A stretch of 20,949 bases of DNA from a virus (taxonomy: Duplodnaviria; Heunggongvirae; Uroviricota; Caudoviricetes): the IMG/VR virus record IMGVR_UViG_2585427741_000003; one strand, written 5' to 3'. Shown piece after piece: positions 1,202 through 20,759 of this stretch. Position 1 is the first letter of the stretch, and the number at the start of each line of letters is the position of its first letter. Below the pieces are notes generated by a model. It ran no database searches, was not told the origin of the DNA, and saw nothing but the letters and a program-made list of their open reading frames with translations. Position numbers and translations under genes: made by a program.

Positions 1202-3612
1202 GTAATGACGATATGAGCAACTCTAGCGGCTTTAACGAGGCTGCCGCAGCATTTTCATGGAACGGCCCGAAAAAGGCCATTAACCCTTATCTGGAACCGG
1301 AGGAAGTTGCGCCGGAGTCTGCACTTTCAAACATGATCACTCTGTACGCTGCCGATAACGAGCAGGAACAGCAGCGCCGCGAGGCACTGAGTGATCAGGT
1401 CTGGGAACGTTATTTCTTTAATGAATCCCGTGATCCTGTCCAGCGCGAAATGGAGCAGGATAAGCTCATTAGCCGGGCAAAGCTGGCGCATGAGCAGCAG
1501 CGTTTTGACCCGGACATGGTCATTCTGTCGGACGTCAGCGCCCAGCCTACCCACATCAGCAAGCCGCTGATGCAACGTATCGAATACTTCAGCAGCCTGG
1601 GCAGGCCAAAGGCTTATTCCCGCTATTTGCGTGAGACGATTAAGCCATGTCTGGAGCGACTGGAGTATGTACGCGACAGTCAGCTATCCGCTTCTTTCCG
1701 TTTTATGGCAAGCCATCAAGGGCTTGAGGGCCTGCTGATCCTGCCTGAAATGAGTCAGGATCAGGTAAAACGCCTGTCCACCCTGGTAGCAGCGCATATG
1801 AGCATGTGTCTTGAGGCCGCTTGTGGTGATTTGTATGCCACCGATGACGTTAAGCCAGAAGAAATCCGCAAGACATGGGAAAAGGTGGCAGCGGAAACCC
1901 TGCGTCTGGATGTTATCCCGCCTGCGTTTGAGAAACTCCGCCGGAAAAGAAACCGCCGCAAACCTGTGCCCTATGAACTCATACCGGGTTCGCTGGCACG
2001 TATGCTTTGCGCCGACTGGTGGTACCGGAAATTATGGAAGATGCGTTGCGAATGGCGGGAAGAGCAGTTGCGTGCTGCCTGTCTGGTCAGCAAAAAAGCA
2101 TCTCCCTATGTCAGCTATGAAGCAGTGACACATAAACGTGAGCAGCGCCGCAAGTCGCTGGAGTTTTTCCGTTCTCATGAACTGGTGAACGAAGACGGCG
2201 ACACGCTGGATATGGAAGATGTGGTAAACGCCAGCAGCAGCAACCCGGCGCATCGCCGCAATGAGATGATGGCCTGTGTTAAAGGTCTGGAGCTTATCGC
2301 AGAAATGCGTGGTGACTGCGCCGTTTTCTACACTATCACCTGTCCGTCACGTTTCCATTCCACGCTCAACAACGGCAGACCCAACCCGACCTGGACAAAT
2401 GCGACGGTAAGACAAAGCAGCGATTATCTGGTCGGCATGTTTGCTGCATTTCGTAAGGCGATGCACAAAGCCGGGTTGCGCTGGTATGGCGTGCGGGTGG
2501 CTGAGCCGCACCATGACGGTACTGTGCACTGGCATCTCATGTGTTTCATGCGCAAAAAAGACCGCCGCGCTATTACTGCATTGTTGCGTAAGTTTGCCAT
2601 CCGTGAAGACCGCGAGGAACTGGGCAATAACACGGGGCCACGCTTTAAGTCTGAGCTGATAAACCCGCGCAAAGGAACGCCAACAAGCTACATCGCGAAA
2701 TACATCAGTAAGAACATTGACGGACGTGGTCTGGCTGGCGAGATCAGCAAGGAAACGGGTAAATCCCTGCGTGATAACGCCGAATACGTTAATGCCTGGG
2801 CGTCTCTGCATCGTGTTCAGCAGTTCCGCTTCTTTGGTATTCCGGGGCGTCAGGCGTACCGTGAACTTCGCTTGCTGGCTGGTCAGGCGGCAAGGCAACA
2901 GGGTGACAAAAAAGCAGGTGCGCCGGTACTGGATGACCCGCGCCTTGATGCCATCCTGGCTGCCGCTGATGCTGGCTGTTTTGCCACCTACATCATGAAG
3001 CAGGGCGGCGTACTGGTTCCCCGCAAATATCACCTTATCAGAACAGCTTATGAAATTAACGAAGAGCCGACCGCTTATGGCGATCACGGTATTCGTATTT
3101 ATGGCATCTGGTCACCCATTGTACAGGGCAAGATCTGCACTCATGCAATGAAATGGAAAATGGTTCGTAAGGCCGTTGACGTTCAGGAGGCGGCAGCCGA
3201 CCAGGGCGCTTGCGCCCCTTGGACTCGTGGCAATAACTGTCCCCTTGCTGAAAATTTGAACCAACAAGGGAAAGACAAATCAGCTGATGGGGACTCCAGA
3301 ACGGATATTACCCGTATGAATGACAAGGAGTTGCACGATTACCTGCACAGTATGAGCAAAAAAGAGCGCCGGGAACTGGCTGCAAGGTTACGCCAGGTGA
3401 AACCGAAACGGCGTAAAGACTACAAACAGCGAATTACAGACCATCAGCGACTGCAGCTCGTGTATGAGCTGAAGTCCAGAGGATTTGATGGCAGCGAGAA
3501 AGAGGTCGATTTACTCCTTCGCGGAGGCAGTATTCCGTCAGGAGCAGGCCTGCGTATCTTCTATCGGAACCAGCGTTTGCAGGAAGATGATCAGTGGCGG
3601 AACCTGTATTAA
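1198..3612 (+). CDS. A: Rolling-circle replication initiator endonuclease, P2 gpA-like
   Basis: 804 aa; metal-binding [11 protein letters not shown] (HxH-type motif) and catalytic tyrosine region [12 protein letters not shown] typical of the phage GPA replication-initiator family. Size is close to P2 gpA (about 760 aa, recalled). Confidence 0.88.
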
Positions 3613-3704
3613 TTACGCGGGTTAACAATTCGTGCTCTTAATAATACCAGGCATATCAGGCTGATGAACGTAAAAAAACGTTTTACATCAGTAAGATTAT
3701 TATA

Positions 3705-3724
3705 TACTGTAAATATAAACAGTG
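3705..3724 (+). promoter_or_regulatory. Putative LexA (SOS) box
   Basis: TACTGTAAATATAAACAGTG has the form CTGT-N8-ACAG with an AT-rich spacer, close to the consensus TACTGTATATATATACAGTA. It sits about 40 bp upstream of the RBS/ATG at 3766 and overlaps a candidate -10 TATACT. Confidence 0.6.
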
Positions 3725-3765
3725 GTTATACATACAGTATTGCGTGTGGTGTCATAGGAGGAAAG

Positions 3766-3954
3766 ATGCAGGACTATTTTTTGGAGTCTTTGAAGCTCCA
3801 GCGCATTGATTTTTTTCTTAAGCTTGTAGCGGCTAGTGAGTGTAGTGATGAAGAGAAGGGGCTGGCTCTGCAGTGGGTTTCTGAATTGACTGATGAACTC
3901 ATGGCAAAAATCAGAACCCACGAATACAACCGCTCAATGGATGTCATCAGCTGA
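3766..3954 (+). CDS. Hypothetical small protein (62 aa), first gene of the SOS-box unit; possible Tum-like antirepressor (speculative)
   Basis: ATG at 3766 is preceded by a strong RBS AGGAGG (3756-3761). The longer version in the ORF track (start 3664) would read through the LexA box. No family recognised from sequence alone. Confidence 0.45.
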   Translation: MQDYFLESLKLQRIDFFLKLVAASECSDEEKGLALQWVSELTDELMAKIRTHEYNRSMDVIS

Positions 3955-3964
3955 GGTGACTTTT

Positions 3965-4198
3965 ATGCGCATTGAAATAATGATCGATAAAGAGCAGAAG
4001 ATTAGCCAGTCTACCCTGGACGCCCTTGAATCCGAGCTTTACCGCAATCTGCGCCCCCTGTATCCCAAAACGGTAATTCGCATTCGCAAAGGTAGCTCTA
4101 ACGGTGTGGAACTAACCGGACTGCAACTGGACGAAGAAAGAAAACAAGTGATGAAAATTATGCAGAAGGTGTGGGAAGACGACAGCTGGCTGCATTAA
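3965..4198 (+). CDS. DinI-family protein (DNA-damage-inducible protein I-like)
   Basis: 77 aa, MRIEIMIDKEQKISQSTLDALESELYRNL...KQVMKIMQKVWEDDSWLH. The MRIE start, the central LDAL..EL block and the C-terminal acidic W-containing tail match the recalled DinI/MsgA pattern. RBS GAGGTGA lies upstream. Confidence 0.7.
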   Translation: MRIEIMIDKEQKISQSTLDALESELYRNLRPLYPKTVIRIRKGSSNGVELTGLQLDEERKQVMKIMQKVWEDDSWLH

Positions 4199-4333
4199 GA
4201 AACGTTGCTGGCGTCTGAACTTGCTTCTGGCGTCAGCAAGGTTGAACAACGAGCCCTTGCGAGGCGTTAGCTCTGTAGTGCATGTCTATGCCGCATGAGA
4301 TCGCATGATCGTTTGAGGATCGTTTTTGCTAAG

Positions 4334-4357
4334 GCCCGCCAGAACTGGCGGGCTTTT
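4334..4357 (+). terminator. Rho-independent terminator candidate
   Basis: GC-rich inverted repeat GCCCGCCAG / CTGGCGGGC followed by TTTT, downstream of the DinI-like gene. Confidence 0.6.
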
Positions 4358-4402
4358 GCGTAGATCATGCAGGTGCATGAAAACCACTACATAAAGCGGG
4401 CA

Positions 4403-4421
4403 GGCGTGGCGGGGATACGAG
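4403..4421. other. Putative cos (cohesive-end) site of the P2/186 type
   Basis: GGCGTGGCGGGGATACGAG: the first 13 nt match the recalled 186 cohesive end (GGCGTGGCGGGGA...) and resemble P2 cos (GGCGAGGCGGGGA...). Position fits the conserved order: replication region, cos, portal. Confidence 0.4.
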
Positions 4422-4434
4422 CGCGCGCAGCGGG

Positions 4435-4463
4435 TGGAAACTCAGATTTGAATGTTGTATAAA
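4435..4463 (+). promoter_or_regulatory. Candidate sigma70 promoter for the retron operon
   Basis: TGGAAA (4435-4440), 17-bp spacer, TATAAA (4458-4463), about 30 bp upstream of the effector ATG. Sequence match only. Confidence 0.35.
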
Positions 4464-4492
4464 AGATGGGATCATTCTGAGGAAAAGTGGAT

Positions 4493-5398
4493 ATGAAAAA
4501 GAAAACTATTCCGGAGTTGCAGAAGCAAAATCTGGCAAATTTAATTAAAAGTCGGCTTTTTCAACAGAAAAATAAAAATAAAGTTACTGTTTTCCTTTGC
4601 GGGGGCGATTTGAATGATCCGTTTTTTTGTAGAAATAAAGTTAAAAGAGTGTTGGAAACACATCCCAAAATAGAAATATTCTATCCTGAGGAGTTGTTTG
4701 ATGAGCTTTTGTATGGACAAGGTCAGCATAGTCTTTTAAGTTTGGAGAATATTTTAGCTGATTCAGTCGATGTTATTATTATTATTCCTGAAAGCCCAGG
4801 GTCTTTCGCTGAATTGGGCGCATTTTCAAATAATGAAAAACTGTGCAAAAAAATGATATGTCTTCAGGATGACAAATTCAAACTTAAAAAAAGCTTTCTT
4901 AATTATGGGCCTATAAAACTGCTTCGGCGTGCTAATAGCGGTGCAGTATTGCGAGGAGATTTGTCGACTCTTGAAAGCTTGAGTACAGGTAAAGCTTTTT
5001 ATAATAGAATTATAAAAAGTATTAATGACATCAAAAAAAATAACCCAGTTAATCACTCAATAGATAATATTCTTCACGCTCGGCGTTTTATACTGCCATG
5101 TATATATTTGATGGATGGTATAGATAATATACTTCTATATGAGCTATTACATTTGGTGACTAAGAAAGATGCTATTCTTTGTGAAATTATCGTTAAGTCT
5201 GTTATTTCAAGCTTGATTAAAGAGTCAATAATTAGGCGTTCAGTTCAAGGATACCATATTACAGAAATTGGTATGCAATACGTTCTTGAGCATTTTGATC
5301 GAAAGGCTTTGGACAATCTACGACTGGATATGATGAACTTCGAAAATCGTGGTAAAACAATACTCCACTATGATAGGATGCGTTTTGCGCACCCTTAG
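4493..5398 (+). CDS. Retron effector candidate: nucleoside 2-deoxyribosyltransferase-like (NDT-like) N-terminal domain plus C-terminal helical, possibly DNA-binding, domain
   Basis: 301 aa from ATG 4493 (RBS GAGGAAA upstream; the ORF track begins two codons earlier at GTG 4487). Rossmann-like start KVTVFLCGG and DVIIIIPESPGSFAELGAF block with a candidate catalytic Glu in SFAELG. Low-GC codon usage unlike the flanking phage genes. Stop codon TAG (5396-5398) lies inside retron repeat a1. Confidence 0.65.
   Translation: MKKKTIPELQKQNLANLIKSRLFQQKNKNKVTVFLCGGDLNDPFFCRNKVKRVLETHPKIEIFYPEELFDELLYGQGQHSLLSLENILADSVDVIIIIPESPGSFAELGAFSNNEKLCKKMICLQDDKFKLKKSFLNYGPIKLLRRANSGAVLRGDLSTLESLSTGKAFYNRIIKSINDIKKNNPVNHSIDNILHARRFILPCIYLMDGIDNILLYELLHLVTKKDAILCEIIVKSVISSLIKESIIRRSVQGYHITEIGMQYVLEHFDRKALDNLRLDMMNFENRGKTILHYDRMRFAHP
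5387..5397 (+). repeat. Retron inverted repeat a1
   Basis: GCGCACCCTTA; exact reverse complement of 5535-5545. Confidence 0.8.
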
Positions 5399-5534
5399 CG
5401 AGTGGCTTCTCCGGAAGTTCACTGGACAGTGTTTCGCTGTCCTACATACAATCTGAAGTTTTACCAGTTCCCTCATTGAAAGGAGAACATCTCCCGATGT
5501 TCTCCTTTCACTTCGGAATCTGATTTTTATGACG

Positions 5535-5545
5535 TAAGGGTGCGC
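5535..5545 (+). repeat. Retron inverted repeat a2
   Basis: TAAGGGTGCGC; exact reverse complement of 5387-5397; ends 2 nt before the RT start codon. Confidence 0.8.
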
Positions 5546-5547
5546 TC

Positions 5548-6522
5548 ATGACTTCCGCAACACCATCTCAGGTTTTTCGCTTACGCAATCTTGGATTGCC
5601 TGTTATGTCCTCTTTAGAGGATATGTCTAGAGAAATGCGTTTATCAGTAGACATACTCCGGTTGTACATTTATCGTGCTGACAAATACTATAAGGTTTAT
5701 TCGTTGCCAAAAAGAGATGGCAAGAGATCCCGCATCATTTCACAGCCATCACGTGAGCTGAAGGCATTGCAAGCTTGGGTGTTAAGAAACATCCTTGATA
5801 AGTTACATTCATCCCCATTTTCCAAAGGCTTTGAAAAAGGGCAATCAATATTAAATAATGCCAGCCCACATGTAGGAGCTAACTATGTATTAAATATTGA
5901 TTTAGAAGATTGTTTTAATACTATTCTGATAGAGAAAATCTATACTGTTTTTCATTCTCTGGGGTATAACTCTACTATTTCTAATGCTTTAGCAAGATTG
6001 TGTTCATTTAATGGTTCGCTACCTCAAGGTGCACCATCTTCTCCAAAGATTGCGAATCTTGTTTTAACTAAATTAGATTATAGAATACATGGATATGCAG
6101 GTAGTAAGGGGATCGTATTTACTCGATATGCCGATGATTTGACTTTATCTGCTCAATCTTTAAAAAAAATACTTAAAGCTAAGTCATTTGTATGCTCTAT
6201 AATACCAAGTGAATCTTTGAAGGTTAATTATAATAAAGTTGCGATTCATGGCCCCAAAGCAAGGAAGGAGGTTACTGGGCTCGTTTTATCTATTGATAAT
6301 GTTGGAGTTGGCAGAATACGTTATCGCGAAATTAGAAGTAAGATCCATTATCTGGCGGTAAAAAGAAATTCTGATTTCGAACATGTTAAAGGACTTATTG
6401 CGTTTGTTAAAAGTGTAGACAAGAAAAACTATAGAAAATTGATGACTTTCTCAAATAAAATGTCTGAAGCATATGGGGTTGATCTAAGTGTTCTTTTTCC
6501 TAAAAACAAAAAGGCCATTTAA
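5548..6522 (+). CDS. ret: Retron-type reverse transcriptase
   Basis: 324 aa; RT motifs: PKRDGKRSRIISQP (motif 1/2), NASPH (retron NAxxH), LPQGAPSSPKIANL (motif 4), RYADDL (catalytic YADD), and the retron-specific VTG (EVTGLVL). Size is typical of Ec86/Ec73-class RTs. Low-GC composition. Confidence 0.92.
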   Translation: MTSATPSQVFRLRNLGLPVMSSLEDMSREMRLSVDILRLYIYRADKYYKVYSLPKRDGKRSRIISQPSRELKALQAWVLRNILDKLHSSPFSKGFEKGQSILNNASPHVGANYVLNIDLEDCFNTILIEKIYTVFHSLGYNSTISNALARLCSFNGSLPQGAPSSPKIANLVLTKLDYRIHGYAGSKGIVFTRYADDLTLSAQSLKKILKAKSFVCSIIPSESLKVNYNKVAIHGPKARKEVTGLVLSIDNVGVGRIRYREIRSKIHYLAVKRNSDFEHVKGLIAFVKSVDKKNYRKLMTFSNKMSEAYGVDLSVLFPKNKKAI

Positions 6523-6532
6523 TGGCCTTTTT
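6508..6532. terminator. Palindromic A/T-flanked hairpin between convergent RT and portal genes (possible bidirectional terminator)
   Basis: AAAAAGGCCATTTAATGGCCTTTTT is a perfect 25-nt palindrome. It overlaps the RT stop codon and ends 5 nt before the portal gene stop (6538-6540, minus strand). Short GC stem, so moderate confidence. Confidence 0.45.
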
Positions 6533-6537
6533 GTTTA

Positions 6538-7569
6538 TTAGGTAATTGAATAACTCACGAAATTAATAACTTCTTCATTTATCCATTCGTTCAGCTCTTC
6601 TAGTCTTTTTTGTAAAGGGATGAGTTCATTCCTCACAAAAACATTAGCAGCTTTCTCTACATCCCCAAACCCTCCAACATTATTAGGCATAATCCCCATC
6701 ATTTGCGGTGGCACACGATGCGCCGCCATCATGTCATCCCGGCTCACGTTCTTGATGTTCAGAAACTCATCCTTCGCCGCGACCTCTGACAACGGGATAA
6801 TCTGAAGCCCGTCCTTTTTGCCGTTAGGCGAGTACATAAACAGGTTGCGGAAGTTACCCGGTCCTTTGGCGCTTTTCATCGCGTTGCGGAGGTTGTTCAC
6901 GTCCTCCTGGTTCTGCGCGGCATCGGTCATGTACATGATGAAGCCAGCATGACTGCCGTTTATGTAATACTTTCGACGGAACAGCGTGGCGGACTCATTG
7001 AGCAGGGCGGACGGAATAGCAGAAAGATAGCCGGGCAGGCCATAGATCTCCTGATTTATGTCCGGTTCCATCAGATGGAAAATGCTGCCTTTCGTGAACT
7101 GATACGGTTGCGTGGTCATGCCGTATTGCACAAACCAGTAGGTATCTAGGTCTAATCCACGTCGGGTGTATTTTGCCAGCGCAGGCTCAAGAGCGATAAC
7201 TTCACCGAATCGGTTCGTGCGTTTCTCCAGGTAGGCGTTACCAAATACCAGATAGTCCTGCACAAAACGTGAAAAAGCCTGCTGGCTGAGCAGCGGGTGA
7301 GGGATGTAGGTACTGGTCAGAATGTTGCACTTTACTGCAATCGGGGAACTGTGATGCACAGCAGCGCGGAAGGTGCGCGCCAGTCCGTCAAAGCTGACGG
7401 GAGGCTCATACCAGCGATCTGTCTGTACGCATTCCACATAGTCCAGCAGTTCGCGGCGGTCAAGTACGGGAATGGGATCACCGAAGCTGAATGCTTCGGC
7501 TGTAGTCTGGCTTTTGAGCTGGCTCTGTTTCGTCGCCGCAGCGCGGTTCTTCTTACTCTTTCCCATCAA
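6538..7569 (-). CDS. Q: Portal protein, P2 gpQ-like
   Basis: 343 aa (P2 Q about 344 aa, recalled); position and orientation (leftward, next to P) match the P2/186 map. Start overlaps the stop of P (ATGA). Confidence 0.85.
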   Translation of the reverse strand: MMGKSKKNRAAATKQSQLKSQTTAEAFSFGDPIPVLDRRELLDYVECVQTDRWYEPPVSFDGLARTFRAAVHHSSPIAVKCNILTSTYIPHPLLSQQAFSRFVQDYLVFGNAYLEKRTNRFGEVIALEPALAKYTRRGLDLDTYWFVQYGMTTQPYQFTKGSIFHLMEPDINQEIYGLPGYLSAIPSALLNESATLFRRKYYINGSHAGFIMYMTDAAQNQEDVNNLRNAMKSAKGPGNFRNLFMYSPNGKKDGLQIIPLSEVAAKDEFLNIKNVSRDDMMAAHRVPPQMMGIMPNNVGGFGDVEKAANVFVRNELIPLQKRLEELNEWINEEVINFVSYSIT

Positions 7570-17176: not shown

Positions 17177-17774
17177 TCTGCTGCCACCGGGTTCAACTTC
17201 ACTGGAGCGCCGACTGGCGCAAACCTGTAGCGGGATTTCTGATCTGCAGGTGCCGCTGCGTGACTTGTGGAATCCGGCGACTTGTCCGGTCAGTTTCCTG
17301 CCTTATCTCGCCTGGGCGTTCTCTGTGGATCGCTGGGACGAGAGCTGGACAGAAAGCGTCAAACGCCAGGTGGTGAAGGATGCTTTTTATATTCATCAGC
17401 ACAAAGGAACCACCAGTGCCGTGCGGCGGGTGGTGGAGCCGTTCGGCTTCCTGATCCGCATTATTGAGTGGTGGCAGACCGGAGAAACACCGGGCACGTT
17501 TCGCCTGGATATCGGCGTGCAGGATCAGGGCATCACTGAAGATACCTATCTGGAACTTGAGCGGCTGATAAGCGATGCCAAACCATGTAGCCGTCACATG
17601 ATCGGCATGTCCATCAATCTGCAGACCAGCGGTCCGCATTGGGTGGGGGCCGCCAGCTATCTTGGCGAAGAAATCACGATCTATCCGTATATCAACGAAA
17701 CAATTATTTCCGGCGGCACCGCGCATGAAGGCGGGGCGGTCCATGTTATTGACACAATGAGAGTGAATCCATGA
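17169..17774 (+). CDS. I: Baseplate / tail-fibre attachment protein, P2 gpI-like
   Basis: 201 aa; LWNP.TCP, LAWAFSVDRWDE, HKGT and GTFRLDIGV blocks match recalled P2 gpI. Confidence 0.9.
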   Translation: MNSLLPPGSTSLERRLAQTCSGISDLQVPLRDLWNPATCPVSFLPYLAWAFSVDRWDESWTESVKRQVVKDAFYIHQHKGTTSAVRRVVEPFGFLIRIIEWWQTGETPGTFRLDIGVQDQGITEDTYLELERLISDAKPCSRHMIGMSINLQTSGPHWVGAASYLGEEITIYPYINETIISGGTAHEGGAVHVIDTMRVNP

Positions 17775-19168
17775 GCACAAAATTTTATACCCTGCTGACG
17801 GATATTGGCGCGGCGAAACTTGCCAGCGCCGCCGCGCTCGGTGTGCCTTTAAAAATTACCCATATGGCGGTAGGCGATGGCGGCGGAACATTGCCAACGC
17901 CGGACGCAAAGCAGACAGCATTAGTAAATGAGAAACGCCGGGCTGCGCTGAATATGCTGTACATCGACCCGCAGAACAGCAGCCAGATTATTGCCGAACA
18001 GGTGATCCCTGAAAACGAGGGCGGTTGGTGGATACGTGAAGTGGGCTTGTTTGATGAGTCCGGGGCATTGATTGCCGTGGGCAACTGCCCGGAAAGCTAT
18101 AAGCCGCAACTGGCTGAAGGTAGCGGGCGCACTCAGACCGTGCGCATGGTGCTGATTACCAGCAGCACGGACAATATCACCCTGAAAATCGACCCTGCCG
18201 TCGTGCTGGCAACCCGCAAGTATGTGGATGACAAGGTACTGGAGCTGAAGGTGTTCGTGGATGATAAGATGGCAAAACATCTTGCCGCACCGGACCCGCA
18301 TTCACAGTATGCACCCAAAGAAAGCCCGACATTGACCGGAACACCCAAAGCGCCAACGCCAGCGGAGGGGAATAACACCACGCAGATTGCGACCACCGCG
18401 TTTGTTCAGGCGGCACTGATGGCCCTTATTAATGGTGCGCCAGCCACACTGGATACGCTGAAAGAAATTGCCGCTGCCATTAATAATGACCCGAAATTCA
18501 GTACCACCATTAACAATGCGCTGGCACTGAAAGCGCCGCTGTTAAGTCCGGCACTCACCGGAACGCCAACAGCCCCCACTGCCGCACAGTCGGTTAACAA
18601 TACACAGATTGCCACCACGGCTTTTGTGAAATCGGCAATTGCGGCAATGGTGGGGTCTGCACCTGCTGCACTGGATACACTGAACGAACTGGCTGCGGCG
18701 CTGGGGAATGACCCGAACTTTGCCACGACAATGCTTAATGCGCTGGCAGGTAAACAACCGCTGGACAATACGCTGACTAATTTGAGTGGAAAGGATGTAG
18801 CTGGTCTTCTCGCATACCTTGGTTTGGGAGAATTATCTCTGGCTGGCACTGCATCGGGTGTCATTGGCCTGAATGGGTATGTAACGATCCCGTTAATTAT
18901 TTCAGGTTCCCGGAGAACACTGATTATTCAGTGGGGGCAGGCGAGATTTGGTGGGTCTGGTGGTGAAGATGCCGGATATCTTAACGATTTTCCTTTTGCC
19001 TTTCCGTCAGCATGTTATGGAATGATAGTTAGTCATGTGGGGCATACACCTTCAGGCGCAGGAATCTTGTCGGCTTCTGCAATTACATCAAATCAGTTCC
19101 GCGGTTTTTCAAGCATAGCGACTGCTGCAAACGCTGTATTAGGTCGTTATATCGCTATAGGGGTGTAA
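17771..19168 (+). CDS. H: Tail fibre protein, P2 gpH-like; C-terminal about 116 codons (18820-19168) lie inside the invertible segment
   Basis: 465 aa; N-terminal 160 aa match recalled P2 gpH (MAVGDGGG, AESYKPALAEGSGR-like blocks). Central tandem fibre repeats (ALTGTPTAPT...NNTQIATTAFV...LDTLNELAAALGNDPNFATT) are shared with P2 H. The C-terminus downstream of the crossover site is unrelated to P2 H. Confidence 0.9.
   Translation: MSTKFYTLLTDIGAAKLASAAALGVPLKITHMAVGDGGGTLPTPDAKQTALVNEKRRAALNMLYIDPQNSSQIIAEQVIPENEGGWWIREVGLFDESGALIAVGNCPESYKPQLAEGSGRTQTVRMVLITSSTDNITLKIDPAVVLATRKYVDDKVLELKVFVDDKMAKHLAAPDPHSQYAPKESPTLTGTPKAPTPAEGNNTTQIATTAFVQAALMALINGAPATLDTLKEIAAAINNDPKFSTTINNALALKAPLLSPALTGTPTAPTAAQSVNNTQIATTAFVKSAIAAMVGSAPAALDTLNELAAALGNDPNFATTMLNALAGKQPLDNTLTNLSGKDVAGLLAYLGLGELSLAGTASGVIGLNGYVTIPLIISGSRRTLIIQWGQARFGGSGGEDAGYLNDFPFAFPSACYGMIVSHVGHTPSGAGILSASAITSNQFRGFSSIATAANAVLGRYIAIGV
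18322..18762 (+). repeat. Two tandem ~220-bp (about 74-codon) imperfect repeats inside the tail-fibre gene
   Basis: Protein-level repeat: TLTGTPKAPTPAEGNNTTQIATTAFVQAALMALINGAPATLDTLKEIAAAINNDPKFSTTINNALALKAP versus ALTGTPTAPTAAQSVNNTQIATTAFVKSAIAAMVGSAPAALDTLNELAAALGNDPNFATTMLNALAGKQP. Confidence 0.8.
18807..18832. promoter_or_regulatory. Left crossover site of the invertible segment (gix/hix/pix-like, 26 bp)
   Basis: TTCTCGCATACCTTGGTTTGGGAGAA: 26 bp with imperfect dyad symmetry around a central TT. The inner 14 bp TTGGTTTGGGAGAA are exactly repeated in inverted orientation at 20679-20692. Confidence 0.7.
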
Positions 19169-19169
19169 T

Positions 19170-19607
19170 ATGTTTTATAGTCCATCTTTAAACATTTTTG
19201 TGAATCCTGCACTTAAGGATGATTACATTAATGCAAATTCATGGCCAGATGATGCTCTGGCTGTCAGTGATGATGTTTATAATGAATTTGCAATCAATAC
19301 GCCTCCAGATGACAAAATTCGTGTTGCAGGAAAAAATGGATTACCCACATGGGCACTAATACCTCCACCATCACATGAAGAACTTATTCAACAGCCAGAA
19401 TCAGAAAGGCAATTATTGCTTAATCAGGCCAACGAATACATGAACAGTAAGCAATGGCCCGGTAAAGCCGCTATTGGTCGTCTGAAAGGTGATGAACTGG
19501 CGCAATATAATTTGTGGCTGGATTATCTGGACGCACTGGAGCTGATCGATACTTCCGGTGCGCCAGATATTGAATGGCCTACGCCTCCGGCAGTTCAGGC
19601 CAGATGA
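19170..19607 (+). CDS. Tail fibre assembly protein (Tfa/gpG-like), paired with the currently expressed fibre C-terminus
   Basis: 145 aa; starts 1 nt after the H stop; conserved C-terminal Tfa signature (LW.DY.DA.E.ID...APDIEWP). Confidence 0.8.
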   Translation: MFYSPSLNIFVNPALKDDYINANSWPDDALAVSDDVYNEFAINTPPDDKIRVAGKNGLPTWALIPPPSHEELIQQPESERQLLLNQANEYMNSKQWPGKAAIGRLKGDELAQYNLWLDYLDALELIDTSGAPDIEWPTPPAVQAR

Positions 19608-20181
19608 CATCCGGCGCTGTGCTGGTATCTGTTGCCGTCACCGCGTCAATGTAATCCAGCACAGCGTTAAGGCGGGTTGTTTCTGCCTGCGTCAGCTTCC
19701 GTCCGGCCTGTAATTTCAGTTGAATCAGACTGATGGAGGCCATTGCAGTATCAATCAGCGACTGGCGCTGTGCTTCTGCTGCATCTACTGCTGCGCCGTG
19801 CTGTGCCTCGGTATCTGTCACCCATTTCTCACCATTCCATTCATCGTATGGCGTTAACGGGGCGATAGTGGTTGTATTTTCAGGATAATCACCCGGAGCT
19901 GTGATTTCTTTCGATTCTCCTGTTTCGGTGCTATAGACGATTTCACCGCGATGATCTGGCACATATTCCCATGAATTTAAATCTACAGAGCGACAGATTG
20001 CATAACCAGCTTTATGTGTACCTGGTGCATCCAAACAAGAACATGCCGGAATACCGACGCCGACAGCGAGATATTCAGTTGATGTAGAAATATATTCACG
20101 CGTTTCACCATCATAGTTATAAACAGTAATATTTCCTGCCTGGGTGGCGATAAATTCGTTATTTAATACGGCGTAATCCAT
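19579..20181 (-). CDS. Alternative tail fibre assembly protein (Tfa-like), inverted orientation
   Basis: 200 aa on the minus strand; C-terminal LDYIDAVTATDTSTAPDVIWPELP is the same Tfa signature; convergent with and overlapping the plus-strand tfa by 29 bp; start overlaps the stop of the alternative fibre segment (TAATGG). Confidence 0.8.
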   Translation of the reverse strand: MDYAVLNNEFIATQAGNITVYNYDGETREYISTSTEYLAVGVGIPACSCLDAPGTHKAGYAICRSVDLNSWEYVPDHRGEIVYSTETGESKEITAPGDYPENTTTIAPLTPYDEWNGEKWVTDTEAQHGAAVDAAEAQRQSLIDTAMASISLIQLKLQAGRKLTQAETTRLNAVLDYIDAVTATDTSTAPDVIWPELPEA

Positions 20182-20691
20182 TATGCAGCCCTCACGATAT
20201 ACGCAAATGCCAGGTTCCGTGGTCTGGTTTCTTTAATTAAAGAGGAGGCATCAGGTGAACTCACTGATTCAGCACCATTTCTTCCACCAGTGGTATAAGT
20301 AAAAACTCTTTCACTGTTAGACCAGTAATCCACACCAACTGTTTTTGCTGATGAAAAAATGGTTTCATCAGATATAACCTGTTCTATTCCATACGGGATA
20401 TTAGTAACTGACCCCACTTTTGTAGGTATTCCATGATTATGAGAAATTACTGCATGCTCTTGATTCGTTAATAAAGTACGACCGCTATCCACTCCACGCC
20501 CGTCATCCCAGCCACGAATAAACTCACCACGTAAATCAGGCAATTTATTTGTCGGATAAGCCTTTGCCAGTTCCGGGTATTCTTCAGCAGAAAAAGCGGC
20601 ACCGTTGCATTTCAGCCAGCCTGTTGGCGGAGTGGCGGAAGGCCACGGAACAGGCACGCCAACGGGTAATGCCGAACCTTCTCCCAAACCA
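20181..20691 (-). CDS. Alternative tail fibre C-terminal segment (promoterless, expressed only after inversion fuses it to the constant part of H)
   Basis: Minus-strand frame is open from the crossover site (..GLGE GSALPVGVPVPWPSATPPTGWLKCNGAAF...) to the stop at 20181. It shares the in-frame GLGE junction codons with H at 18819-18832. The ORF-track Met at 20732 lies outside the segment and is unlikely to be a real start. Confidence 0.7.
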
Positions 20692-20704
20692 ACGTTTATG
20701 AAAA
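20679..20704. promoter_or_regulatory. Right crossover site of the invertible segment
   Basis: TTCTCCCAAACCAACGTTTATGAAAA with central AA; its reverse complement TTTTCATAAACGTTGGTTTGGGAGAA shares the 14-bp inner half with the left site. Confidence 0.7.
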
Positions 20705-20759
20705 TGCAGAGATAACGGCTAACTGGCATCATCCCCGGTTTTTATTCAGGGGATTGATC

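What the first reader, a model, noticed from the sequence alone, without database searches (positions are those of the whole stretch)
5386..5545. msr-msd ncRNA: a1/a2 repeats, long msd hairpin, and a1 overlapping the effector stop codon
GCGCACCCTTA (5387-5397) and TAAGGGTGCGC (5535-5545) are exact inverted repeats bracketing about 137 nt, which is the defining a1/a2 arrangement of retron ncRNAs. Inside are a 6-bp stem-loop (5424-5442, msr-like) and a perfect 12-bp hairpin extendable to 14 bp (5477-5510), typical of an msd stem. The effector stop codon TAG (5396-5398) lies inside a1, so part of the ncRNA is encoded within the effector coding sequence. The TAGCGAG sequence just after a1 is where the branching (priming) guanosine would be expected by analogy with Ec86. 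The predicted msDNA would be about 70-80 nt with a stem different from the Ec86 msDNA (comparison from memory).
Basis: seen in the sequence. Interest (0 to 1): 0.7.

Follow-up and report, generated by a model that had tools for sequence, protein, structure and literature searches.

The report
Ec86-like retron non-coding RNA
The stretch is a genuine retron template RNA gene, a so far uncharacterised cousin of the well-studied E. coli retron Ec86 (Retron-Eco1) carried by a P2-like prophage; it is a correct call but an ordinary new member of a known anti-phage system.

Summary
Confirmed. Window 5385-5545 (+) is an msr-msd ncRNA of the Ec86/Retron-Eco1 kind (Mestre type II-A3). It lies between an NDT-like/winged-helix effector gene (4493-5398) and a retron RT gene (5548-6522), in the cos-to-portal cargo slot of a P2/186-like E. 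coli prophage.

The exact 11-nt a1/a2 repeats, the nested stem-loops and the effector TAG stop inside a1 are all present. A covariance model built from 12 related ncRNAs, without the window, finds only this site (119.9 bits, E 1e-28). Twenty-three of 46 consensus base pairs show compensatory changes.

By homology with Ec86:
- The priming guanosine is G5398, the last base of the effector stop codon.
- The RT-recognition stem-loop with its UUU loop is 5424-5442.
- The msDNA is the reverse complement of about 5452-5533, so about 82 nt.

The stop-codon/a1 overlap is not peculiar to this locus. Ec86 in BL21 has it too, as do 11 of 13 distinct relatives.

Differences from Ec86: RT 59% and effector 50% identical, ncRNA about 69% identical, a different basal msDNA stem, and no CCWGG site (the published Ec86 Dcm sensor), so the trigger probably differs.

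PGAP already names the proteins ("retron St85 family"). The ncRNA is unannotated and absent from Rfam. Novelty: new member of a known kind. msDNA production is inferred, not shown.

The parts
4493..5398 (+). Effector gene: NDT-like N-glycosidase domain plus C-terminal winged-helix domain, 301 aa from ATG 4493 (the mechanical ORF starts at GTG 4487). Its last codons (Ala-His-Pro-stop = GCG CAC CCT TAG) are a1 plus the priming G.
   Evidence: ORF. PADLOC NDT_II-A 2.6e-97. NCBIfam NF038232, 186 bits against a cut-off of 100. 50% identical to the Ec86 effector over its full length, with the Ec86 D69 and E106 equivalents conserved. RefSeq start taken.
5371..5379 (+). Candidate internal promoter for the ncRNA-RT transcript: an extended -10 (TGATAGGAT = TGnTAnnnT) 6-7 nt upstream of the predicted msr 5' end, inside effector codons Tyr-Asp-Arg. 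Inferred, not shown.
   Evidence: The TGnTAnnnT pattern is kept in all 13 distinct loci. The consensus promoter scan, which needs a -35, did not list it.
5385..5545 (+). Whole msr-msd ncRNA. The 5' end is placed by homology 13 nt before the priming G; the 3' end is the end of a2.
   Evidence: Covariance model R1, built without the window, hits 5384-5547 on the + strand at 119.9 bits, E 1.1e-28, full length. Fold z = -8.5. Alignment to Ec86.
5387..5397 (+). a1 (5' arm of helix P1), GCGCACCCTTA. It lies inside the effector reading frame.
   Evidence: Four of the 12 P1 pairs covary in relatives, including changes that alter the effector C-terminus (AHP to VHP, AHL).
5398..5398 (+). Predicted priming (branching) guanosine, within the invariant UAGC (5396-5399). 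It is unpaired in the MFE fold and is the third base of the effector TAG stop codon.
   Evidence: Invariant column in 13 sequences. Bulged in the fold. UAGC and the priming G directly after a1 are described for Retron-Eco1 in PMC11754653.
5401..5423 (+). msr stem-loop P2 (9 pairs, UCCG loop, one bulge). It is shorter than the Ec86 P2.
   Evidence: Fold. The basal pairs covary (A-U to U-A in 5 of 13).
5424..5442 (+). msr stem-loop P3 (8 bp) with UUU loop at 5432-5434. This is the RT-recognition hairpin in Eco1.
   Evidence: Fold. 100% of cells paired, and 3 of 8 pairs have double changes. Role of the UUU loop from PMC11754653.
5452..5533 (+). msd: the template predicted to be reverse-transcribed from C5533 leftwards to about T5452. 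The predicted msDNA is 82 nt: GTCATAAAAATCAGATTCCGAAGTGAAAGGAGAACATCGGGAGATGTTCTCCTTTCAATGAGGGAACTGGTAAAACTTCAGA.
   Evidence: The homologous stretch in BL21 is exactly 86 nt. Palka et al. report 85 nt by sequencing (PMC8989520), so 81-82 nt is expected here. The ends are inferred.
5465..5522 (+). msd hairpin P4 (the DNA stem-loop of the msDNA): a perfect 15-bp stem 5477-5491/5496-5510, loop TCCC, and an outer 7-bp stem 5465-5471/5515-5522. It has no CCWGG site.
   Evidence: 14 of 21 consensus P4 pairs have double changes. Motif scan.
5535..5545 (+). a2 (3' arm of P1), TAAGGGTGCGC. It contains the only Shine-Dalgarno-like sequence for the RT (AAGGG, 5536-5540).
5548..6522 (+). Retron reverse transcriptase gene (324 aa). 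Its ATG is 2 nt after a2. The NAxxH, YADD and VTG motifs are present.
   Evidence: PADLOC RT_II-A 4.9e-123. Pfam RVT_1. NCBIfam NF038233, 272 bits against a cut-off of 235. 59% identical to the Ec86 RT. PDB 7v9u, 5.4e-124.
6508..6532 (.). Hairpin AAAAAGGCCAT-TTA-ATGGCCTTTTT. It is probably a bidirectional terminator that closes the retron operon and the convergent portal gene. The RT stop codon (6520-6522) overlaps the loop/3'-arm junction.
   Evidence: Function inferred.

Best explanation
Window 5385-5545 (+) encodes the msr-msd non-coding RNA of a type II-A3 retron, the Ec86/Retron-Eco1 kind. It is organised as effector, then ncRNA, then RT.

Inferred mechanism, by homology with Eco1:
1. The RNA folds so that a1 (5387-5397) pairs with a2 (5535-5545).
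2. The RT (5548-6522) binds the P3 hairpin (5424-5442, UUU loop).
3. The RT uses the 2'-OH of the bulged G5398 in UAGC to prime cDNA synthesis. It starts opposite C5533 and stops near T5452.
4. Host RNase H1 trims the template. This leaves an RNA-linked msDNA of about 82 nt whose DNA stem-loop comes from 5465-5522.
5. RT-msDNA then binds and holds inactive the NDT-like/winged-helix effector (4493-5398).
6. A phage-induced change to the msDNA releases the effector, which kills or arrests the infected cell by nucleoside/nucleotide depletion.

Shown here: the sequence features, the homology, the conserved and covarying structure, intact genes, and the prophage context.
Inferred: transcription start, msDNA ends, branch formation, toxin-antitoxin behaviour, and the trigger. 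The trigger is probably not Dcm, because the CCWGG site is missing.
For: Proteins:
- PADLOC NDT_II-A and RT_II-A.
- NCBIfam, above the curated cut-offs.
- PDB Ec86 RT 5e-124 and Ec86 effector 5e-92.

RNA:
- Fold of -73.7 kcal/mol, z -8.5.
- Full-length alignment to the BL21 Ec86 ncRNA with identical a1/a2, UAGCGAG and GUUUCG.
- Model R1, built from 12 relatives without the window, gives 119.9 bits and E 1e-28. This is the only + strand hit in 20.9 kb.
- 96% of cells are paired, against about 40% when partners are slid.
- 23 of 46 pairs have double changes, against 11.0 +/- 1.9 in shuffles and 4-7 when slid.

Gene order: the same effector-ncRNA-rrt order is stated for Ec86 (bioRxiv 10.1101/2023.08.16.553469) and seen in BL21.

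Context and conservation:
- The locus sits in the same cargo slot of a P2/186-like prophage as Ec86, between the DinI-like gene/cos and the portal gene.
- The exact RT protein occurs on 477 contigs, and the names shown for its 90% cluster are all Escherichia (E. coli, E. marmotae). This argues for a maintained gene.
Against: - There are no expression or msDNA data for this locus.
- Rfam has no matching family, so there is no curated model to test against.
- The 11-nt repeat alone is within chance expectation.
- The consensus scan found no canonical -35/-10 promoter in front of the RNA.
- The Ec86 trigger site CCWGG is absent, so part of the Eco1 mechanism cannot simply be transferred.
Confidence: 0.93

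Rival explanations
1. The structure is only an intercistronic regulatory element of the effector-RT operon: an attenuator, an mRNA-stabilising hairpin, or a structure that sequesters the RT ribosome-binding site. It is not reverse-transcribed.
For: The a2 arm contains the RT's Shine-Dalgarno-like AAGGG and ends 2 nt before the ATG, so P1 formation could well affect RT translation. There is no terminator between the effector and the RNA.
Against: This does not explain the invariant UAGC, the UUU-loop hairpin, or the full-length homology to an RNA that is experimentally reverse-transcribed in Ec86. A regulatory role would add to the template role, not replace it.
Confidence: 0.03
2. The locus is a decaying, non-functional retron remnant in a defective prophage. 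The RNA motifs persist, but no msDNA or defence is produced.
For: The BL21 copy of the same prophage type is truncated (the replication gene is a pseudogene). Some cluster members are truncated RT fragments. The cos-like site at 4403-4420 matches the recalled 186 cos sequence only in its first 13 nt.
Against: Both ORFs are full length and have their catalytic motifs. The region is 99.8-100% identical in four independent complete genomes. The identical RT occurs on 477 contigs. The RNA scores as well as bona fide relatives. The prophage in the window has a complete set of replication, head and tail genes.
Confidence: 0.04

Closest known systems
Retron-Eco1 (Ec86) of E. coli B/BL21, type II-A3 (Mestre et al. 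2020, PMC7736814)
   Same: - Gene order effector-ncRNA-RT.
- Same prophage cargo slot.
- a1/a2 identical (Ec86's is 1 bp longer), with the same UAGCGAG priming context.
- The priming G is the last base of the effector TAG stop (effector C-terminus AHP* in both).
- P3 hairpin with UUU loop.
- The apical msd stem differs by one compensatory pair.
- RT and effector are homologous over their full length.

   Different: - RT only 59% and effector 50% identical; ncRNA about 69% identical.
- P2 is shorter.
- The basal msd stem has a different sequence.
- Predicted msDNA 82 nt against 86 nt.
- No CCWGG Dcm site in the msDNA. That site is the published Ec86 trigger sensor.
- The RT ATG is 2 nt rather than 6 nt after a2.
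Unnamed Ec86-like retron on metagenome/IMG-VR contig Ga0157370_10000566 (L005/L043)
   Same: It is the closest relative recovered outside the window's own variant (RT 65% identical). It has the same overlap (SAHP* and TAG) and an identical apical msd stem sequence, AGAGAACATCTCCCGATGTTCTCT.
   Different: It has a different P2 and a different basal msd stem. a1 carries a G-to-A change that is compensated in a2.
Retron-Sen2 (St85) / Retron-Eco3 (Ec73), type II-A1
   Same: The effector is NDT-like plus a DNA-binding domain. PGAP names the window's proteins 'retron St85 family'.
   Different: The RT belongs to a different clade (clade 1 against clade 9), the ncRNA is a different type, and the gene order is msr-msd, effector, RT (PMC7736814; PMC11701397 abstract). 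The PGAP family name is therefore broader than the actual subtype.

Membership tests
Retron (any type) | Reverse transcriptase of the retron clade (NAxxH, YADD, VTG motifs) | tested here: met
   PADLOC RT_II-A 4.9e-123. NCBIfam retron_St85_RT, 272 bits against a cut-off of 235. PDB Ec86 RT 5.4e-124. The motifs are visible in the alignment.
Retron (any type) | Structured ncRNA next to the RT gene, closed by a1/a2 inverted repeats, with a conserved unpaired G directly 3' of the 5' repeat | tested here: met
   G5398 is bulged in the MFE fold and invariant in 13 sequences.
Retron (any type) | Production of msDNA joined by a 2'-5' bond to the priming G | not testable with these tools
   This needs msDNA extraction, debranching and sequencing.
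Type II-A3 retron (Ec86/Retron-Eco1 kind) | [quoted passage not shown] | tested here: met
   PADLOC NDT_II-A 2.6e-97. Full-length match to the Ec86 effector chains 7v9x_C/8qbl_G, 5e-92. 50% identity. Definition from PMC7736814.
Type II-A3 retron (Ec86/Retron-Eco1 kind) | Gene order effector - ncRNA - RT ('Nuc_deoxy+Retron') | tested here: met
   Window 4493-5398, 5385-5545 and 5548-6522. The order is seen in BL21 and stated.
Type II-A3 retron (Ec86/Retron-Eco1 kind) | ncRNA of the Ec86 (IIA3) structural type: P1, P2, P3 with UUU loop, P4, and UAGC at the priming site | tested here: met
   A covariance model from 12 relatives, window excluded, gives 119.9 bits and E 1e-28 over its full length. 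Covariation is shown. The motifs are named in PMC11754653 and the stems were verified chemically in PMC8989520.
Retron-Eco1 (Ec86) itself | CCWGG Dcm target in the msDNA stem-loop, which serves as the phage sensor | tested here: not met
   There is no CCWGG in the predicted msDNA. Only 4 of 13 family members have it. The sensor role is described in bioRxiv 10.1101/2023.08.16.553469. So this is a relative of Eco1, not Eco1.
Rfam RNA families | Score at or above a family's gathering threshold | tested here: not met
   No match at gathering scores. The best sub-threshold scores are about 17 bits, to unrelated families. Rfam 15 has no model that covers this RNA.

The most novel reading that the evidence does not exclude
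The double overlap could be a built-in switch that couples toxin and antitoxin production. The effector stop codon ends on the priming G inside P1, and the RT Shine-Dalgarno sequence lies inside a2.

On the operon transcript, a ribosome terminating at UAG 5396-5398 must melt a1/a2. That would free the AAGGG in a2, so the RT would be translated only when the effector is. Once P1 re-forms, the same RNA would become the priming template and RT translation would shut off.

The abutting or overlapping of the effector stop with a1 is conserved from E. coli to Bowmanella and in more distant type II-A3 loci. That is compatible with selection for such coupling. It is equally compatible with simple operon compaction plus an internal promoter.
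Probability: 0.15. Interest if true: 0.5.

Novelty: new member of a known kind. Interest (0 to 1): 0.25.

Why it matters
It adds a natural, fairly common Escherichia variant of the most widely used retron, Eco1, the workhorse of retron genome editing. The exact RT protein is found on 477 contigs.

The variant keeps the same priming site and RT-recognition hairpin but has a different DNA stem-loop and no Dcm site. That makes it a ready-made comparison for two questions: which part of the msDNA specifies the phage trigger, and how the effector reads the DNA stem-loop.

It also shows that the effector stop codon/priming-G overlap is a conserved property of this retron type, which none of the papers read here discusses. 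Finally, it documents an ncRNA that genome annotation and Rfam currently miss.

Tried and rejected
- **Rfam.** Searches at gathering scores and at permissive E-values gave nothing relevant.
- **Promoter scan.** The consensus scan found no canonical sigma-70 site upstream of the RNA. The only + strand hit nearby (5423-5452) lies inside the RNA and is not conserved in function. The extended -10 at 5371-5379 is my reading of the alignment; it is confounded by conservation of the Tyr-Asp-Arg/Lys codons.
- **Minus-strand model hit.** The hit at 5385-5548 (20 bits) is the mirror image of a hairpin-rich RNA, and I rejected it.
- **Genome-contig scan.** It returned only two loci because the peptide patterns were narrow. 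The metagenome and viral scans supplied the rest.
- **L022 and L023.** The regions upstream of their RT matches are coding sequence with no recognisable a1/a2 or UAGC, and model R1 found no ncRNA in them. I left them out, and did not examine their RTs or neighbouring genes further.
- **Literature look-ups.** Searches for the RefSeq accessions, and for the ncRNA or RT sequence in the supplements of the retron census, found nothing. No supplements of Mestre et al. are held. I therefore cannot exclude that the locus is listed in a supplementary table somewhere.
- **Terminator or attenuator reading of the inverted repeat.** I rejected it as the sole explanation (see rival explanations).

Full report
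**1. The observation**

The sequence reads exactly as described. GCGCACCCTTA lies at 5387-5397 and its reverse complement TAAGGGTGCGC at 5535-5545, with 137 nt between them. A 303-codon ORF (4487-5398; RefSeq start ATG 4493) ends with TAG at 5396-5398. A 324-codon ORF starts at 5548, two bases after the second repeat.

As RNA, 5380-5550 folds to -73.7 kcal/mol. Shuffles give -39.7 +/- 4.0, so z = -8.5, and 0 of 200 shuffles fold as well. The fold has these parts:
- Helix P1 is a1 paired with a2, and continues as C5399-G5534 and G5400-C5533 around an unpaired G5398.
- P2 is 5401-5423.
- P3 is 5424-5442: 8 bp with a UUU loop.
- The long hairpin has a perfect 15-bp stem (5477-5491/5496-5510) and an outer 7-bp stem.

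An exact 11-nt inverted repeat within 200 nt is not improbable on its own. About 1.2 are expected per shuffled window. The weight of the case therefore rests on what follows.

**2. What flanks it**

- The upstream protein matches PADLOC NDT_II-A (2.6e-97), and the downstream one matches RT_II-A (4.9e-123).
- NCBIfam places both above the curated cut-offs of the 'retron St85 family' effector and RT models.
- The best solved structures are the Ec86 RT (7v9u, 5.4e-124) and the Ec86 effector (7v9x_C, 5e-92, aligned end to end).
- Identity to the BL21 proteins is 59% for the RT and 50% for the effector.
- The RT keeps NAxxH, YADD and VTG. The effector keeps the equivalents of Ec86 D69 and E106, which line the closed active site in the Ec86 filament.

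The surrounding genes are those of a P2/186-like prophage: Dam-type methylase, replication protein A and a DinI-like protein upstream, then portal, terminase, capsid and tail genes downstream. Ec86 occupies the same slot in BL21.

**3. Homology of the RNA**

The region aligns over its full length with the Ec86 ncRNA of BL21 at about 69% identity. Three elements are identical: a1/a2, UAGCGAG after a1, and the GUUUCG core of P3.

I collected related loci with the RT as bait. This gave 13 distinct ncRNA sequences, including ones from Bowmanella and Rheinheimera (RT 55-57% identical).

- RNAalifold predicts the same four helices, and 23 of 46 pairs have compensatory double changes.
- On the fixed structure, 96.1% of cells pair, against 38.8-42.8% when the partners are slid.
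- Pairs with double changes number 23, against 11.0 +/- 1.9 in shuffles (0 of 500 reach 23) and 4-7 when slid.
- A covariance model built from the 12 relatives without the window finds 5384-5547 (+) at 119.9 bits, E 1.1e-28, full length. This is the only + strand hit in the window.
- The weak minus-strand echo (20 bits) is the mirror image of the hairpins.
- Rfam has no family for this RNA, and RefSeq annotates nothing between the two genes.

**4. Functional anatomy by homology**

Crawford et al. (PMC11754653) report which parts of the Retron-Eco1 ncRNA tolerate change. [quoted passage not shown] It tolerates changes in P2 and P4. The pattern of conservation and variation in my alignment is the same.

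- The priming G is therefore G5398.
- In BL21, the stretch from TCTGA to the C before GTAAGG is exactly 86 nt. This matches the name Ec86 and the msDNA sequence as I remember it. Palka et al. measured 85 nt (PMC8989520).
- The homologous stretch here is 5452-5533. That predicts an msDNA of 82 nt (or 81), whose DNA fold keeps the 15-bp stem.
- The placement of the msr 5' end at about 5385 (13 nt before the branch) rests on my memory of the Ec86 literature. It is a lead, not a test.

**5. The stop-codon overlap**

The last base of the effector TAG is the predicted priming G. This is not special to the window. BL21 Ec86 has the same arrangement (effector C-terminus AHP*), as do 11 of the 13 distinct loci.

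- The two exceptions stop 15 nt upstream (Rheinheimera) or 7 nt downstream (L014).
- Changes in a1 that alter the protein tail (AHP to VHP in L029, to AHL in Bowmanella) are compensated in a2. The helix is therefore under selection even where it is coding sequence.
- In more distant type II-A3 loci the effector stop lies directly before a1 (L015, L017), inside it (L019), or a few bases after it (L020).

Tight packing of the effector 3' end against the ncRNA is thus a property of the type.

Two further overlaps:
- A conserved TGnTAnnnT (window 5371-5379) sits 6-8 nt before the RNA and could be an extended -10 promoter inside the effector gene. Its conservation cannot be separated from that of the Tyr-Asp-Arg/Lys codons.
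- The only Shine-Dalgarno-like sequence for the RT (AAGGG) is part of a2.

None of the papers I read discusses these overlaps.

**6. Mechanism**

For Ec86, the published model is as follows. RT-msDNA and effector dimers assemble into filaments that keep the NDT-like domain closed. The DNA stem-loop contacts that domain. Methylation of a CCWGG site in the stem-loop by a phage Dcm activates the effector, which depletes adenine nucleosides (bioRxiv 10.1101/2023.08.16.553469; summarised in PMC11754653).

I infer the same tripartite toxin-antitoxin logic here. However, the predicted msDNA has no CCWGG, and only 4 of the 13 family members have one. The trigger is therefore probably different.

**7. 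How common, how new**

- The 2.2-kb retron is 99.8-100% identical in 4 of 5426 complete E. coli genomes.
- The Ec86 version of the ncRNA is in 48 complete genomes, mostly B-strain derivatives.
- The exact RT protein is recorded on 477 contigs; the names shown for its 90% cluster are all E. coli or E. marmotae.
- I found no mention of this variant in the searchable literature or in the held supplements of the retron census.

It is a new, uncharacterised member of a well-understood kind. It is neither a new variant nor a new class.

**8. Verdict**

Observation confirmed and interpretation supported. Interest is low to moderate (0.25). The finding is useful as a natural Eco1 variant for studying trigger specificity, and as an annotation gap, but it would not surprise a specialist.

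Noticed in passing
window 4403-4420 (and 4400-4440): There is a cos-like sequence, GGCGTGGCGGGGATACGA. Its first 13 nt match the phage 186 cohesive end as I recall it, and the rest diverges. This 35-41-nt stretch is the only part of 4400-6600 shared with many other E. coli prophages and with Klebsiella, Yersinia and Salmonella P2-like phages. The retron therefore sits as cargo between cos and the portal gene.
   Followed up: partly
window 6508-6532: The hairpin AAAAAGGCCAT-TTA-ATGGCCTTTTT sits between the convergent RT and portal genes. The RT stop codon (6520-6522) overlaps the junction between its loop and 3' arm. It looks like a shared bidirectional terminator.
   Followed up: no
window 4334-4359: A GC-rich hairpin followed by a T run (GGCCCGCCAGAACTGGCGGGCTTTTG) lies after the DinI-like gene. 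It probably terminates the early/replication operon before the cargo region.
   Followed up: no
window 4198-4487 versus L001 (E. coli H1) 4849-6094: Strain H1 carries about 950 bp more than the window between the DinI-like gene and the retron, including two hypothetical genes. BL21 has yet another gene there, on the opposite strand. The slot upstream of the retron is variable, and the window does not come from any of the four complete genomes that share the retron.
   Followed up: partly
window 5452-5533 (predicted msDNA): The predicted msDNA has no CCWGG (Dcm) and no GATC (Dam) site, although the prophage itself encodes a D12-class adenine methylase (344-1201). The only short motif found was one GANTC.
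   Followed up: partly
window 18807-18832 and 20679-20704: 26-nt inverted repeats (81% complementary) bracket about 1.85 kb. This segment holds the 3' end of the tail-fibre gene (17771-19168), a tail-fibre assembly gene (19170-19607), and, on the opposite strand, a second assembly gene (19579-20181) and an alternative tail-collar/fibre C-terminus (20181-20732). It looks like an invertible host-range segment of the Gin/Cin/Min kind. The invertase gene would lie beyond the window end.
   Followed up: partly
L002 (BL21) 3176 versus 3251: RefSeq annotates the Ec86 RT of BL21(DE3) from an internal start (locus 3251, 295 aa). The 320-aa ORF that matches the solved Ec86 RT starts at 3176, six bases after a2.
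   Followed up: no
window 3664-3954: A 96-codon ORF lies between the replication gene and the DinI-like gene and has no Pfam or PADLOC match. RefSeq annotates only a shorter hypothetical protein there.
   Followed up: no
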